A stretch of 64,000 nucleotides of DNA. It comes from Pseudomonadota bacterium. Lineage in GTDB: Bacteria; Desulfobacterota; Desulfobacteria; Desulfobacterales; JBDRRP01. Below are positions 1 through 26,083 of the stretch, in pieces. The notes beneath the pieces are model-generated. The model was not told where the DNA came from and did not search any database. It was given only the letters and a program-made list of their open reading frames with translations. The stretch is taken from positions 1 to 64,000 of the forward strand of contig JBDRRP010000040.1 in the NCBI GenBank assembly GCA_043825735.1, read 5' to 3'. A program made the translations under genes and the position numbers. Within the stretch, counting starts at the first letter, position 1; each line of letters opens with the position of its first letter.

Positions 1-245
1 GGGTTTGACGGCGCAGCGTGCTTTTGATGCCGGAATGAATCGTGTCCGGCGTTTTCCAAGCACAGCGCCCGGTTTTTCGATACCGATAGCGATCCCGATT
101 TCGAGGTCACAGCCCAAACGGATAAGTTAGCGCATATGGGGGTAAACCCCGCCCGCAATCCTCAGATGACCGCCAACGCCTCAACCAAAGACGCTGAAGT
201 ATTTGCCAGAATACGTTCCGTTTCATCGCCAAAGTCCTATCGGTA

Positions 246-2231
246 TCATCCATTCTCTGCGGTCTTGGCGTCTTTGCGAGAGTCATTTCTTATGTTTTCG
301 TGCAGCCTGGATAGGACATCGGGAAACGGCACCTGCGCTGCCGCCCCAAACAGCGGGTGGGATGTCAGTTTTTCCTTGGAGAGTTTCGGCGAGCTGACCC
401 CGCACAGAAACCGGGCGGCGGCCTGTGGGTGTGCGAGGGGTTGCGGGTGCGCGCGTCGCAACGCGATGACCTGCCGGAAAAGGTCTTCTTCCGGCACCGG
501 ATGCGATCGTGGCGGTATTGTCACCGGCCGGTTTCCGCCGGTGCACCAGGCGCAGTGACCACAGGCATTTTTTCTTTTTTCGCCGAAATGCTCACACAGG
601 GTCATCCAGTGGCATCCGTCGCCGCCGGCCAGCGCCAGCACCTGATGCAGCCGGGCGATCTCACGGCGTTCGCGCGCCAACGATTTCTCATAAAGTGACG
701 CTGCCAGCGCGTGAAGATTCTCGCAGGGCATGACACGGCGATAGCGATTTCGCACGCCCTGAACCTTGACCTCGAGCATCTGCTGTTCATCCAGGTAGTC
801 CAGAGCCCGCACGATGCGCTCGCGGGGGCATTTGATAATCAGCGCAGCGGCATCCACATCCAGTGAAAACCATGTCCTGGCCTTGACCGCTTGGTTGAAC
901 ATCTGTGACAGAAACCGGCGGCGGTCTTCGTCGAAATGAGCCAGGATTTCCTGTGAGGGCACACGCTCCTTGAACTGGTAGGTGGCGTAAAAAGGGGTGC
1001 CCCCGACGAGGTAACCTTCCAGTTCCAAATAGGTCAAAAGCGTTCGCACGACCAGTATCCGGATATCGACTGTCGCTGAAAGCTCGTAATAGCTCACATC
1101 AAAGGCTTCCTCCTCACTGAACACGGCCGTGACCAGTTCTGATACGGCCTCCGGGGTGGGGGTGTCGCCATAGGCGAAATTTTCCAGGGCGTTGAGATCG
1201 TCCGGGCAGACCAGCATCTCGCACACTGACGGCAGCCCGTCCCGGCCGGCGCGACCGATTTCCTGAGAGTAGTTCTCGAGACTCTTTGGCAGGTTGTAGT
1301 GGAAAATCGAGCGGATATCAGGCTTGTCGACGCCCATGCCAAAGGCGATGGTGGCCACGACGATTCCGGTTTTGGAAGCAAGAAACCAGTCCTGCACGGC
1401 GCTGCGGTCGTCGTCTTTCATTCCGGCGTGATAGGCCCTGGCCGGAAAGCCGGCATCGACCAGGCGACGGGCCACCTGTTCCGCGGTGCGCTGCAAGGTG
1501 ACATAGACGATAGCGGCGCCGGCACCGCGGGCGCGCAGCCGTTCGATGAGTTGCCGGTCCCGGTCCTTAGCGGTCACAGGTGTCGTTCGCAGCGTCAGAT
1601 TGGGGCGGTAAAACCCGGTACAGGTGCTGCACGCGGGCGAAATGTCAAATGCCGCCTGCATGTCTTTGAGGACTTTCGGCGTGGCGGTGGCTGTCAGCGC
1701 AAGGATGCGCTCGGCCTTGCAGCGCCGGCCGAATTCGGCGAGCTTCAGGTAGTCGGGGCGAAAGTTGTGGCCCCACTCGGAGATGCAGTGGGCCTCATCG
1801 ATGGCAAACAGCGACACCCGGCTCTGCAGGATCGCTTCGGTGAACCGTTCATTGCCGAAGCGTTCCGGGGCCACGTAGAGCAGTCGCAGCGACCGGTTGC
1901 GAAGGCCGTCCATCACCTCGCGATATTCATCCAATGAAAGAGTGCCATCCAATCGTCTGGCCGGGATACCGCGCAGCTTCAGGGCATCGATCTGATCCTT
2001 CATCAGGGCGATGAGCGGAGAGACCACCAGGGTCACCCCGTCCAGCAGCAGCGCCGGCAGCTGGTAGCAAAGGGACTTGCCCCCGCCCGTCGGAAATACA
2101 GCCGCTGCCGAACGTCCGGCAAGGAGGTTTTCGATGACCTCCCGCTGGCCGGGAAGAAACGCATCGAACCCGAAATGTTGTTTCAAGACGGCAACCACAT
2201 CCGTTGAAAGCGGTGACCGCTTCATGGTCAT
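246..2231 (-). CDS. recQ: RecQ-family ATP-dependent DNA helicase
   Basis: FPTGGGKSLCYQLP, DEAHCISEWGHNFRPDY, ATIAFGMGVDKPD and QEIGRAGRDG motifs, plus RQC Zn ligands (C...CGHCAWC). Start placed at ATG 2231, which overlaps the upstream stop (ATGA); 2225 is an alternative. Confidence 0.95.
   Translation of the reverse strand: MTMKRSPLSTDVVAVLKQHFGFDAFLPGQREVIENLLAGRSAAAVFPTGGGKSLCYQLPALLLDGVTLVVSPLIALMKDQIDALKLRGIPARRLDGTLSLDEYREVMDGLRNRSLRLLYVAPERFGNERFTEAILQSRVSLFAIDEAHCISEWGHNFRPDYLKLAEFGRRCKAERILALTATATPKVLKDMQAAFDISPACSTCTGFYRPNLTLRTTPVTAKDRDRQLIERLRARGAGAAIVYVTLQRTAEQVARRLVDAGFPARAYHAGMKDDDRSAVQDWFLASKTGIVVATIAFGMGVDKPDIRSIFHYNLPKSLENYSQEIGRAGRDGLPSVCEMLVCPDDLNALENFAYGDTPTPEAVSELVTAVFSEEEAFDVSYYELSATVDIRILVVRTLLTYLELEGYLVGGTPFYATYQFKERVPSQEILAHFDEDRRRFLSQMFNQAVKARTWFSLDVDAAALIIKCPRERIVRALDYLDEQQMLEVKVQGVRNRYRRVMPCENLHALAASLYEKSLARERREIARLHQVLALAGGDGCHWMTLCEHFGEKRKNACGHCAWCTGGNRPVTIPPRSHPVPEEDLFRQVIALRRAHPQPLAHPQAAARFLCGVSSPKLSKEKLTSHPLFGAAAQVPFPDVLSRLHENIRNDSRKDAKTAENG
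255..300. repeat. CTTTGCG-type interspersed repeat arm inside the recQ 3' end
   Basis: tctgcggtcttggcgtctttgcgagagtcatttcttatgttttcg is nearly identical to 42077-42121 and related to 30097-30177. Confidence 0.8.
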
Positions 2232-2638
2232 TTTGTCACCAGCGATTTTTTCACCCAGATATGGGGCCACTGTTTAAGGTCGCTCACCAAACCCTTTCGG
2301 ATCGGGTTGCTGGCAACGAAGAGGCAGATATCCTTCAACATGGCGTCATCTCTGATGGGCAGGTAAAGGACCCTGCTCCATATGCTCTCGTAATTGCCGC
2401 TGTCACAGTCCGCCAAGCCGGTGGCGACCTTGAAATCCTGCATAAGCTTACCGATACTCGATCCGCCCTGCGGAGCGGCGACGATGTGGAGATGATCGGG
2501 CATGAGACAGTAGGCGTATAGCGTCATCCGGTGCTCGCGTACAAACCGGCGGATCGCATCAATAATGGCCTTGGTCACCGTTTCCTTTCTCAGAACGGGC
2601 GGTTTCACCTCGGAAATGAACCGCATTGAATAAATCAT
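2228..2638 (-). CDS. REP-associated tyrosine transposase (RAYT/Y1 HUH)-like protein with Phe at the catalytic Tyr position
   Basis: HUH motif YAYCLMPDHLH, then FK, W...IR, NPIRKGLV and W-P tail. The canonical YIxxNP reads FVASNP. Confidence 0.8.
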   Translation of the reverse strand: MIYSMRFISEVKPPVLRKETVTKAIIDAIRRFVREHRMTLYAYCLMPDHLHIVAAPQGGSSIGKLMQDFKVATGLADCDSGNYESIWSRVLYLPIRDDAMLKDICLFVASNPIRKGLVSDLKQWPHIWVKKSLVTK

Positions 2639-2768
2639 TGCGATGCCGTTACCTTATCGCATCCATACCCGTTATAGTAAATGTCATAATAACAACCGCG
2701 CTAACCTGGATTCGTCGATGGACCGCAGGATCGCGGTGCAGGGCGCCGTTGCTGCGAGCTCATGATTT

Positions 2769-3467
2769 CTAACTGGCGATCTGTATTGGAGAGAGCCCCA
2801 GTTCGCGGCGTTTGGCTTCCATAATCAGTTGGAACAGGTCCGTTTTGATCTGTCTGGGGATGACTTTGTTGGGGACGTACCTGAAGCGGTATCGGCCTTC
2901 GGTGGTCGAAATCAGAGCCATTGCGGCCTCTTCTTTTCTCAAGTCACCGCAGACGGCGTTGAACAGGACCCCGCCGTCGAAATAGAACCGCCCTCTTTGG
3001 CCGTCCGGGCGCTCGATGTCGAAAAGGCAGGTTTTTTGCTCCATGGCGATCATTTGAAGAAAGCCCGTGACGGAAATACCATACAACGATCCCCGGGGAA
3101 TGTCGCGCTCCAGCACTTGCATAATGACACCGGCGAGGACATCGACATCCACGGGTTTTGGGAAAAAGCTGACGGAGTCGTCGGAAACACGCTCACGCGC
3201 CTTCTCAGGATTGTGGGATGACATTACCAGGCAGGGAACCACCGGATGGTGCTCACCCATATAGGCCAAAAGCTTTAATCCGTCGATATTGGGCATTTGA
3301 ATATCGGTCACCAGCAGCGACACCGGTTTTTTTCCCATAATGCCGATCGCTTCCTGACCGTCGAGTGCGAAAAGGACCTCGAAACGGTCCTTGTACTTTT
3401 TAAATTTGGTTTTCAAAACCCGCGATAGTATTCTGTCGTCTTCGGCGATCAATACGGTATGCTTCAT
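2769..3467 (-). CDS. Response regulator (REC + DUF4388-like domain)
   Basis: REC motifs LIAEDD, TDIQMP, FPKP; C-terminal GSLYGISVTGFLQMIAMEQKTC...GRFYFDGGVLFNA. Confidence 0.85.
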   Translation of the reverse strand: MKHTVLIAEDDRILSRVLKTKFKKYKDRFEVLFALDGQEAIGIMGKKPVSLLVTDIQMPNIDGLKLLAYMGEHHPVVPCLVMSSHNPEKARERVSDDSVSFFPKPVDVDVLAGVIMQVLERDIPRGSLYGISVTGFLQMIAMEQKTCLFDIERPDGQRGRFYFDGGVLFNAVCGDLRKEEAAMALISTTEGRYRFRYVPNKVIPRQIKTDLFQLIMEAKRRELGLSPIQIAS

Positions 3468-3624
3468 ATATCTCTCCAGTGAATGTGCGGTACTGATGTT
3501 TCGGCGTGGTTGTCATTTCCAGCGCACTTGAAGCCCTGGGCCGTGTCTGCCGACCGGCGGTGGCGGTTTCCGGCGCGTATAGCCGCATGTGAAAGGCCGC
3601 AAGCAGGGCATTACGATGGCCTGT

Positions 3625-7855: not shown

Positions 7856-8146
7856 TTAAAATGATGGTCCTTTTGGGAGCTGTGCGCCATGCCACACCGC
7901 AACAATCCAAACGACATCGTCTTTGATTTTATAAAAAAACCGGTAAGGCGATATGATCACTTCTCGGTAGGGTAGTTCTGGAAAATCTGGTATAATTCTT
8001 CCTGATTCAGGAAAGTCTTCAAGCCTTCTTAGGATTTTTTCAGCCCGCGTACGAAAATCAATAGCCGCTGAAGGTTTGTCCTTTCGAATGTATGATAGCG
8101 CGGTAAGAAATTGAGTTTTGGCAGAAGGTGTAAATTTGACCTTCAC
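7856..8146 (-). CDS. RelE/ParE-family type II toxin
   Basis: MKVKFTPSA...LEDFPESGR...YREVIISPYRFFY...IVAVWHGAQ; overlaps the antitoxin stop by 4 bp. Confidence 0.9.
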   Translation of the reverse strand: MKVKFTPSAKTQFLTALSYIRKDKPSAAIDFRTRAEKILRRLEDFPESGRIIPDFPELPYREVIISPYRFFYKIKDDVVWIVAVWHGAQLPKGPSF

Positions 8147-8424
8147 GAAGGCATCCTGGCCAAAATGTCGTCGGCTTCAGCAAGAACTGTATCCAGATCA
8201 TACCCGTGGCCCGTTTCGATTTCCCTATCTCCCTTAGCCAAGAGGCGCAACAGTTCCTTCTCGTGTTCAGATTTCTCATAGGCATCAACACCGATTATTA
8301 CCGCTGTTGCCCGACCTCTTTGCGTGATTATCAAAGGCTCTTTGCTGTTCCGCAATTGTTTCAGTAGCTTTGCAGCATCTTGCCTTAAATCGCTCACGGG
8401 AATGATATTTGATAGCTTGCCCAT
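8143..8424 (-). CDS. Phd/YefM-family antitoxin
   Basis: IIPVSDLRQDAAKLLKQL...EPLIITQRGRATAVI; GGAGG RBS upstream. Confidence 0.9.
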   Translation of the reverse strand: MGKLSNIIPVSDLRQDAAKLLKQLRNSKEPLIITQRGRATAVIIGVDAYEKSEHEKELLRLLAKGDREIETGHGYDLDTVLAEADDILARMPS

Positions 8425-25889: not shown

Positions 25890-26083
25890 ATTGATAACCC
25901 GGTAAAAAGTCCTCCGACCGTCATGCCGGACTTGATCCGGCATCCATTAGCCTTAGAAATCACTGGATTGCCTTGGAAACCCGGTGCTTCGCATCGAGTT
26001 CCAGACAGACAGCGCCGGATCTCGCTTCACTCGTGCGGAATGACAAAAATGGTGGGAATCCGACTTTTTACGGGACTGTCAAT
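25890..26083. repeat. MITE-like element with 22-bp imperfect terminal IRs and internal CGTC-type palindromes
   Basis: attgataacccggtaaaaagtc / gactttttacgggactgtcaat (18/22 match); internal cgtcatgccggacttgatccggcatcc...cggaatgac. Confidence 0.8.

What the first reader, a model, noticed from the sequence alone, without database searches (positions are those of the whole stretch)
246..2638. Tyr-less RAYT-like HUH protein overlapping the recQ start: candidate hairpin-targeting helicase module
Seen: the 136-aa ORF keeps the HUH metal motif (MPDHLH) and the NP-x-K-G-L-V and W-P tail, but the YIxxNP position reads FVASNP (TTC at 2318-2320). The usual dH-x-IR segment reads LYLPIR. Its TGA overlaps the recQ ATG (ATGA, 2228-2231), and no obvious REP pair flanks it. 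Established: RAYT/TnpA-REP enzymes bind REP hairpins and cleave ssDNA through this Tyr; RecQ unwinds DNA secondary structures. Inference: a cleavage-dead, domesticated hairpin reader co-expressed with RecQ could handle the many palindromes in this genome. I know of no described system of this form.
Basis: partly seen in the sequence, partly recalled or inferred. Interest (0 to 1): 0.78.

Follow-up and report, generated by a model that had tools for sequence, protein, structure and literature searches.

The report
Rare tyrosine-less, REP-free RAYT lineage
This intact gene descends from a bacterial DNA-hairpin-cutting enzyme but has Phe in place of the cutting tyrosine, a change shared with two distant relatives that also keep the metal-binding residues, so it is likely a repurposed non-cutting protein, and its position against recQ is likely incidental.

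Summary
In detail: the 136-aa ORF (2228-2638, minus) keeps MPDHLH and N111, has Phe at the catalytic Tyr (TTC, 2318-2320) and overlaps a RecQ-family gene by ATGA. It is not an error or a lone decay. Two other proteins, 53% and 34% identical, share the Phe, and the three form one clade (95/95); 262 of the other 264 homologues have Tyr. All three keep the metal ligands but have lost the GTAG-guide contacts (Gln, Asp/Glu, His) and carry an acidic instead of basic hairpin-binding helix (net -1, -3, -1 against +3.9). GT[AG]G REPs flank 15 of 17 Tyr-bearing relatives and 0 of 2 Phe loci. The RecQ module is not supported: the one other member with known context has no recQ within 8 kb, and 0 of 31 recQ-subfamily loci carry the gene. 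The closest member's context is unknown. Best reading: a domesticated, cleavage-dead, metal-binding RAYT derivative that probably no longer reads REP hairpins; function untested. Earlier scan notes report other Tyr-less TnpA-Y1 lineages on other DNA (not checked here); six literature searches found none described.

The parts
2228..2638 (-). Tyr-less RAYT-derived HUH protein, 136 aa (P0001)
   Evidence: PF01797 33 bits, cut-off 23; NF047646 65.9 bits, cut-off 80; pLDDT 91.7; best fold match 4ER8, Z 14.0, rmsd 2.7 over 131 residues
2486..2503 (-). MPDHLH, HUH metal motif (H49, H51), invariant in all three Phe members
2372..2455 (-). helix C region, residues 62-89; basic in Tyr-bearing relatives, net charge -1 here
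   Evidence: role of this helix from PMC3479197
2351..2380 (-). W87-R96 segment: W kept, guide-contact Gln, Asp and His replaced (WS...YLPIR)
   Evidence: guide contacts from PMC6006769 and PMC8266576
2318..2320 (-). TTC, Phe107 at the catalytic Tyr position
2306..2308 (-). Asn111, third metal ligand position (N119 of E. coli TnpA-REP), kept
   Evidence: PMC3479197
246..2231 (-). RecQ-family helicase (DEAD, Helicase_C, RecQ_Zn_bind; no RQC or HRDC hit); neighbour, linkage not conserved
2228..2231 (-). ATGA stop/start overlap
   Evidence: frequency in this genome
2769..3467 (-). upstream same-strand gene: response regulator with DUF4388, 130 nt before the HUH ORF

Best explanation
The gene encodes a RAYT-fold HUH protein with Phe at the catalytic tyrosine and its metal-ligand residues intact, and it is likely a domesticated, non-cutting protein that holds a divalent metal and would bind a nucleic-acid or nucleotide phosphate without REP specificity and independently of RecQ. 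Steps: (1) shown: descent from short GTAG-REP-flanked RAYTs; (2) shown: one clade of three proteins shares Phe and lacks the guide-contact residues, the basic helix and flanking GTAG REPs; (3) shown by sequence comparison: the coding frame, fold residues and metal ligands stay constrained after the Tyr was lost; (4) inferred from TnpA Tyr-to-Phe mutants: no phosphotyrosine cleavage or strand transfer; (5) inferred: the metal site is still loaded and used for phosphate binding; (6) inferred from one other locus: the gene moves between neighbourhoods and the recQ overlap is a local arrangement.
For: Phe in 3 of 267 proteins, Tyr in 262. Trio is one side of a branch at 95/95 among 40 rows and at 98.3/100 among 39 rows after removing seven columns that include the lost functional sites. 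Of 31 sites conserved at 70% or more in Tyr-bearing homologues, 16 are kept in all three, 5 are lost in all three (Q88, D93, H94, E99, Y107) and 10 in part; only 4 of 62 variable sites are invariant. P0001 against P0017: 21 of 31 conserved sites identical against 8 of 62 variable ones; codon-position identity 0.50, 0.64, 0.32 with dS saturated. Helix C net charge -1, -3, -1 against mean +3.95, sd 1.7, n 262, one sequence at -1 and none lower; an alignment-free recount gives +3.9, n 234. REPs within 220 nt: 15 of 17 Tyr relatives, 0 of 2 Phe loci. L044 context has no recQ. PMC3479197 describes Y132F of TnpA ISDra2 as inactivating with the active site still assembled.
Against: Only three sequences and two contexts are known, so no conserved neighbour or operator points to the new job. 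Metal binding, phosphate binding and expression are untested. K70 (E. coli K81) and R89 (E. coli R97) are kept in P0001, and its whole-core charge is +4, so some DNA binding may remain. G000 holds small GTAGGG hairpin families (18, 17, 7, 6, 5 copies by first 14 nt) and no short Tyr-bearing RAYT was found in it, which leaves possible substrates for a hairpin binder. P0017 is no closer to the other two (35-38%) than to its best Tyr-bearing match (41%). A neutral simulation left the frame open in 5.8% of 5000 runs at 53% identity, which alone is modest evidence.
Confidence: 0.5

Rival explanations
1. It is still an enzyme: the kept metal site activates water, so the RAYT has become a hydrolytic nuclease or phosphodiesterase that forms no covalent intermediate and has lost REP specificity.
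For: H49, H51, D48 and N111 are invariant across the trio. The residue three after the Phe is Ser, Ser, Thr, against Ser or Thr in 17 of 262 Tyr-bearing homologues. Phe rather than a random residue keeps the helix packing (inference).
Against: The same Tyr-to-Phe change inactivates TnpA ISDra2 (PMC3479197). The three sequences are kin, so Ser/Thr110 counts as one or two events. No precedent was found in the literature searches.
Confidence: 0.15
2. It is a cleavage-dead reader of REP or other hairpins that acts without RecQ, for example shielding orphan REPs or competing with active Y1 nucleases.
For: RAYT fold is intact. W87, Y92 and K/R70 are kept. G000 has GTAGGG hairpin families and no short Tyr-bearing RAYT was found. 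A CGTC-type inverted pair lies just downstream of P0017 (z -3.81).
Against: Guide-contact Gln, Asp/Glu and His are lost in all three and Arg in two; PMC3479197 reports that without the GTAG contacts hairpin binding is not detected. The hairpin-binding helix is acidic. No GT[AG]G REP flanks either Phe locus within 220 nt. The CGTC-type repeat is also a dispersed family in G000 and is not beside the window's gene.
Confidence: 0.12
3. It is a relic drifting after loss of function, and the three Phe proteins are slow to decay or were inactivated independently.
For: Only three singleton clusters were found. PMC6006769 treats sequences lacking core motifs as non-functional. The start lacks the N-terminal arm seen in 173 of 210 Tyr-bearing homologues. 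Ten of 31 conserved sites are changed in each member.
Against: The losses are the same sites in all three and share a new Y-[LV]-P motif; monophyly survives removal of those columns. Third codon positions are saturated while second positions are 64% identical. In the neutral simulation all 16 motif sites were kept in 1 of 5000 runs; those 16 were chosen after seeing the alignment, so this figure is optimistic. GC3 is 0.71, like recQ at 0.72.
Confidence: 0.1
4. One reading: a non-cutting hairpin reader co-translated with RecQ that directs the helicase to palindromes, at least in the P0001/P0002 sub-branch.
For: ATGA overlap on the same strand. This recQ is an outlier in its order: one match at 60% and the rest at 39-45% among 60 other genomes. 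The context of P0002, on a 16,981-base contig, is unknown. Y1 domains do occur inside other helicases: P0285, Tyr kept.
Against: P0017 has no recQ within 8 kb either side. 0 of 31 recQ-subfamily loci carry a Phe-type gene; the closest, L059 at 61%, has an AbiEii-family gene upstream. ATGA overlaps are common here. The hairpin-reading surface is lost.
Confidence: 0.08
5. It supplies only the metal half of an active site, with the tyrosine coming in trans from another Y1 protein, as between the two subunits of an IS200/IS605 TnpA dimer.
For: Metal ligands kept, Tyr lost. IS608 TnpA uses hybrid active sites (abstract of PMC3597680 in the listing). G000 encodes several long Y1 frames with Tyr.
Against: E. 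coli TnpA-REP, the closest fold, is a monomer (PMC3479197). No Y1 gene was found beside P0017 within 8 kb, and its own helix D with Phe would occupy the site (inference).
Confidence: 0.05

Closest known systems
RAYT / TnpA-REP (E. coli MG1655, PDB 4ER8; class 2 TnpA-Y1 of PMC6006769; NCBIfam NF047646)
   Same: Fold (Foldseek E 1.3e-7, TM 0.72; VIA Z 14.0), HUH motif, Asn of Y---NP, conserved Trp, single short domain; nearest sequence relatives are short RAYTs in GTAG REPtrons.
   Different: Phe for the catalytic Tyr; guide-contact Gln, Asp/Glu, His lost; acidic helix C; no N-terminal arm; no flanking GT[AG]G REPs; score 65.9 under the 80-bit cut-off.
IS200/IS605 TnpA (IS608, ISDra2) and the engineered ISDra2 Y132F mutant (PDB 2XO6)
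   Same: HUH-Y1 core fold; Y132F is the laboratory equivalent of the natural change.
   Different: NF033573 only 18.8 bits, cut-off 55; Y---NP context of class 2, not Y---Q; single copy in G000; no tnpB or IS ends seen.
Tyr-less TnpA-Y1 lineages in earlier notes of this scan (e1-5134578, e1-3564025, e1-4596171; unchecked AI notes)
   Same: Reported loss of the catalytic Tyr with the gene kept under selection.
   Different: Those are reported as TIRYT/subclass 2.1-like or IS200-like, widespread, each with a fixed neighbour (gltB, polysaccharide operon, lexA). This clade is a short RAYT derivative with three known members and no shared neighbour; a sequence look-up of P0001 found no look-alike note.
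RecQ-family helicases (TIGR00614)
   Same: The neighbour passes the family cut-off and has the Zn-binding domain.
   Different: Below the recQ equivalog cut-off, no RQC or HRDC hit; no conserved link to the HUH gene.

Membership tests
RAYT / TnpA-REP | HUH motif with metal-ligand Asn (Y---NP context) | tested here: met
   H49, H51, N111 align with H59, H61, N119 of 4ER8
RAYT / TnpA-REP | catalytic tyrosine on helix D | tested here: not met
   Phe107; Tyr in 262 of the other 264 homologues
RAYT / TnpA-REP | guide-contact residues W94, Q95, E/D100, H/R101, R104 | tested here: not met
   W kept; Q, D/E, H lost in 3 of 3; R lost in 2 of 3 and shifted by a deletion in P0001
RAYT / TnpA-REP | flanking GT[AG]G REP hairpins (REPtron) | tested here: not met
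   0 within 1000 nt in the window; 0 within 220 nt at L044; 15 of 17 Tyr relatives have them
RAYT / TnpA-REP | NF047646 score over curated cut-off | tested here: not met
   65.9 bits against 80
RAYT / TnpA-REP | RAYT fold | tested here: met
   predicted model pLDDT 91.7; best match 4ER8 in two searches
RAYT / TnpA-REP | REP-dependent ssDNA cleavage and strand transfer | not testable with these tools
   needs a biochemical assay
TnpA-Y1 superfamily (PF01797), by descent | PF01797 over gathering score | tested here: met
   33.1 bits against 23; P0002 35.8, P0017 25.8
IS200/IS605 TnpA | NF033573 over cut-off, Y---Q context, multiple copies or IS ends | tested here: not met
   18.8 bits against 55; single copy in G000
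   absent at L044 and at 31 of 31 other recQ loci examined; P0002 context unknown
RecQ family (neighbour gene) | TIGR00614 over cut-off | tested here: met
   375.4 bits against 219.8

The most novel reading that the evidence does not exclude
A RAYT lineage has switched chemistry: with the tyrosine, the guide contacts and the hairpin surface gone but the HUH/Asn metal centre and a new Ser/Thr beside it kept, it is a natural tyrosine-free HUH hydrolase that cuts phosphodiesters with water and forms no covalent intermediate.
Probability: 0.15. Interest if true: 0.8.

Novelty: new variant of a known kind. Interest (0 to 1): 0.45.

Why it matters
A published survey set aside TnpA-Y1 sequences lacking core motifs as non-functional (722 of 924 kept, PMC6006769). 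This clade suggests that some of the discarded kind are under selection and have left the REP system in a coordinated way: nucleophile, guide contacts, hairpin surface and flanking REPs gone, metal ligands kept. It gives a small natural protein for asking what an HUH metal centre does without its tyrosine, which bears on the open question of what hosts gain from RAYTs. Its weight is limited by rarity (three sequences, two contexts) and by the failure of the RecQ link.

Tried and rejected
Sequencing error or recent TAC-to-TTC change: rejected, Phe is shared by two diverged relatives. More members: peptide-pattern scans with the P0001/P0002 alignment found none in genome contigs (0 of 34 candidates) or metagenome contigs (0 of 476). 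A clade-shaped DNA pattern gave 2 hits in metagenome contigs (L044 = P0017; L045 chance, opposite strand of another ORF), 1 in genome contigs (L046, chance, 15 residues opposite another ORF) and 0 in viral contigs; the pattern is strict and would miss members that vary at its fixed sites. Whole-genome searches of 41 relatives and of 401 genomes each at order, phylum and class level (overlapping samples) gave no non-self match near the clade's score. Of 28 loci read, 23 showed Tyr and 5 did not match the print-out pattern; of 11, 10 showed Tyr and 1 did not match. Longer or fused forms: 19 hits at 21-32% identity, 17 showing Tyr and 2 not matching the pattern; weak evidence by the tool's own note. 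Plasmids: 2 distant hits at 27-28%. ESM Atlas: top cluster for both P0001 and P0002 is a 50-member Y1_Tnp cluster with a 137-aa representative (0.96 against 0.95 for the next); its members could not be read, so whether it holds more Phe proteins is unknown. dN/dS against L044: dS saturated, no value. Expression: no RNA holder listed; one same-study RNA run laid nothing. Runs X2-X4 do not cover the Phe codon. Promoter scan: nothing on the minus strand upstream; the upstream 141 nt folds no better than shuffles (z -0.47). The record behind L044 is not held for whole-record search, so only 8 kb each side of a 171,923-base contig was read. Co-fold with RecQ: tool not available, no result. Literature: searches found no description of a conserved Tyr-less RAYT or of a RAYT-RecQ link; supplements were not read, and the Additional files of PMC6006769 may list Tyr-less sequences.
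Full report
Observation. The window is G000:C40:1-64000. An ORF of 136 codons lies at 2228-2638 on the minus strand. Its codon 107 is TTC at 2320-2318, and its TGA overlaps an ATG in frame with the downstream helicase. The stop-to-stop frame is 141 codons, so no longer N-terminus is hidden upstream. GC3 is 0.71, like the helicase at 0.72. The protein passes PF01797 (33.1 bits, cut-off 23) and falls short of the RAYT model NF047646 (65.9 against 80). In the alignment to E. coli TnpA-REP (4ER8) Phe107 sits on the Tyr of YIYINP. The predicted model is confident (pLDDT 91.7) and its best match in two fold searches is 4ER8. A Logan assembly of run X1, possibly the source sample, shows 0 differences over 1671-3600.

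The Phe is a lineage trait. A word-indexed search returned 16 proteins, of which one other, P0002 (53% identity, 137 aa), has Phe, the YLP motif and the same MIYSMRF start. A full HMMER pass over 1.84 billion cluster representatives put a third, P0017 (160 aa; 37% over matched stretches, 34% in alignment), first among non-self hits; it too has Phe. Of all 267 proteins gathered by then, 262 have Tyr, 3 Phe, 1 Asn and 1 a gap. Each Phe protein is a singleton cluster. The three are one side of a branch at 95/95 in a 40-row tree (37 of 207 core-length Tyr-type rows chosen: the 28 closest and 9 spread), and at 98.3/100 in a 39-row tree without the longest row and without seven columns that include the lost sites. 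Against this, P0017 is 35-38% identical to the other two and 41% to its best Tyr-bearing match, and the stem is long.

The gene stays constrained after losing Tyr. Of 31 sites conserved at 70% or more among Tyr-bearing homologues, 16 are kept in all three (AYCxMPDHLH, W87, Y92, N111, R114, GLV), 5 are lost in all three and 10 in part; 4 of 62 variable sites are invariant. Pairwise, conserved sites are identical in 22, 21 and 20 of 31 against 26, 8 and 15 of 62 variable sites. Between the window ORF and the L044 ORF, identity by codon position is 0.50, 0.64 and 0.32 over 135 codons, with dS saturated. A neutral simulation to 53% identity left the frame open in 5.8% of 5000 runs and kept all 16 motif sites once; the 16 were picked after seeing the data.

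What was lost is the REP-reading apparatus. PMC6006769 (sections 8 and 12, outline and passages read) names W94, Q95, E100, H101 and R104 as the guide-contact region. PMC8266576 (section 26 read) names Q95, D100 and R104. In the trio Gln becomes S, D, H; Asp becomes L, L, V; His becomes P, P, P; Arg is R (shifted by a deletion), D, P. PMC3479197 (Results parts 1-2 of 3 and passages read) shows that the hairpin is bound mainly by basic residues of helices B and C, that binding is not detected without the GTAG foot, that H59, H61 and N119 are metal ligands, and that Y132F inactivates TnpA ISDra2. Over residues 62-89 the trio has net charge -1, -3, -1; 262 Tyr-bearing homologues average +3.95 (sd 1.7), one at -1 and none lower; an alignment-free recount agrees (+3.9, n 234). 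P0001 does keep the equivalents of K81 and R97 (my reading of the alignment), and its whole core is +4. The nearest Tyr-bearing relatives are REPtrons: 15 of 17 loci have a GT[AG]G hairpin within 220 nt; the two Phe loci have none, and the window none within 1000 nt. The rule has a background of 157 shuffled against 260 real sites per 1.7 Mb.

The recQ link fails where it can be tested. A DNA pattern scan retrieved the locus of P0017, L044. There the gene lies between a large secreted fn3/CarboxypepD_reg protein and an OMPP1/FadL gene, near an S8 peptidase; the helicase query has no hit in the 16 kb held. From the other side, 60 of 400 other genomes of the order have this RecQ subfamily. I read 31 of the 60 loci, 29 with 600 nt or more upstream: none carries a Phe-type gene; two carry pieces of ordinary RAYTs; the closest orthologue (L059, 61%) has an AbiEii-family gene upstream. 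Most are only 40-44% identical, so this side is weaker than the L044 result. An in-frame ATGA overlap occurs at about 316 of 1843 adjacent long-ORF pairs in G000, a rough count. The context of P0002, the closest member, could not be fetched, so a link confined to that sub-branch is not excluded. No co-fold result is available.

How it most likely works. Shown: a RAYT-derived clade with Phe, intact metal-ligand residues, no guide contacts, an acidic helix C and no REPtron. Inferred: no phosphotyrosine chemistry; a metal site still in use, since two His and an Asn would otherwise be expected to drift over this distance; binding of a phosphate-bearing ligand without REP specificity, in a role that does not depend on RecQ (0.5). 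Rivals: a water-activating hydrolase (0.15; Ser/Ser/Thr at position 110 against 17 of 262 is the only extra hint); a RecQ-independent hairpin binder (0.12; G000 has small GTAGGG hairpin families and no short Tyr-bearing RAYT was found); a drifting relic (0.10); the RecQ module (0.08); a metal-half donor to another Y1 protein (0.05).

Comparison with what is known. It is a TnpA-Y1 protein by descent and fold but fails four RAYT criteria (Tyr, guide contacts, REPtron, HMM cut-off), so it is not filed as a RAYT. PMC6006769 dropped sequences lacking the full core or its motifs as non-functional (722 of 924 kept). PMC3733652 (passages) finds the Tyr conserved in all RAYTs and TIRYTs it aligned. bioRxiv 10.1101/2021.07.10.451892 (passages) reports that the non-functional Neisseria RAYTs are frameshifts. 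PMC3333891 (passages) added nothing. Six searches found no conserved Tyr-less RAYT and no RAYT-RecQ link; supplements were not read. Earlier notes of this scan describe other Tyr-less TnpA-Y1 lineages beside gltB, polysaccharide operons and lexA; I did not check them, and none resembles P0001 by sequence look-up. Subclass labels for the long Y1 frames of G000 are recalled, not tested.

Verdict. Observation confirmed; domestication supported; hairpin-reader role argued against; RecQ module not supported. New variant of a known kind, interest 0.45.

Noticed in passing
window 248-300: The last codons of the RecQ-family gene lie in a dispersed repeat with roughly 9-nt period (16-mers with 41-45 copies in G000); the five homologues aligned end without this tail.
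   Followed up: partly
window 1-180: Shared at 92-99% with the first bases of contigs C67, C90 and C91: a repeat at which the assembly breaks.
   Followed up: no
G000 whole genome; L003: G000 has GTAGGG hairpin families, one with the same first 14 nt as the REPs around the Tyr-bearing RAYT of same-genus G001 (L003), but no short Tyr-bearing RAYT was found in G000: possible orphan REPs.
   Followed up: partly
L044:7770-7870: CGTC-type inverted pair just downstream of P0017 (z -3.81); related copies occur in G000 (26 BLAST hits, one at window 25919-25946).
   Followed up: partly
P0285, P0278, P0282: Y1 domains with Tyr inside longer proteins: an 882-aa helicase, a 1379-aa class I tRNA ligase and a 593-aa aminotransferase-family protein.
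   Followed up: no
window 7856-8424: Phd/YefM antitoxin and ParE toxin pair.
   Followed up: no
L083:2-304 and L026:867-1145: Pieces of ordinary RAYTs within 1.5 kb of recQ-subfamily genes in 2 of 31 loci; probably background.
   Followed up: partly
G000:C14:970-2007: A second RecQ-family gene in the genome, 44% identical over 349 aa.
   Followed up: no
window 2308-2311 (residue 110): Ser, Ser, Thr in the three Phe proteins at three residues after the Phe, against Ser or Thr in 17 of 262 Tyr-bearing homologues.
   Followed up: partly
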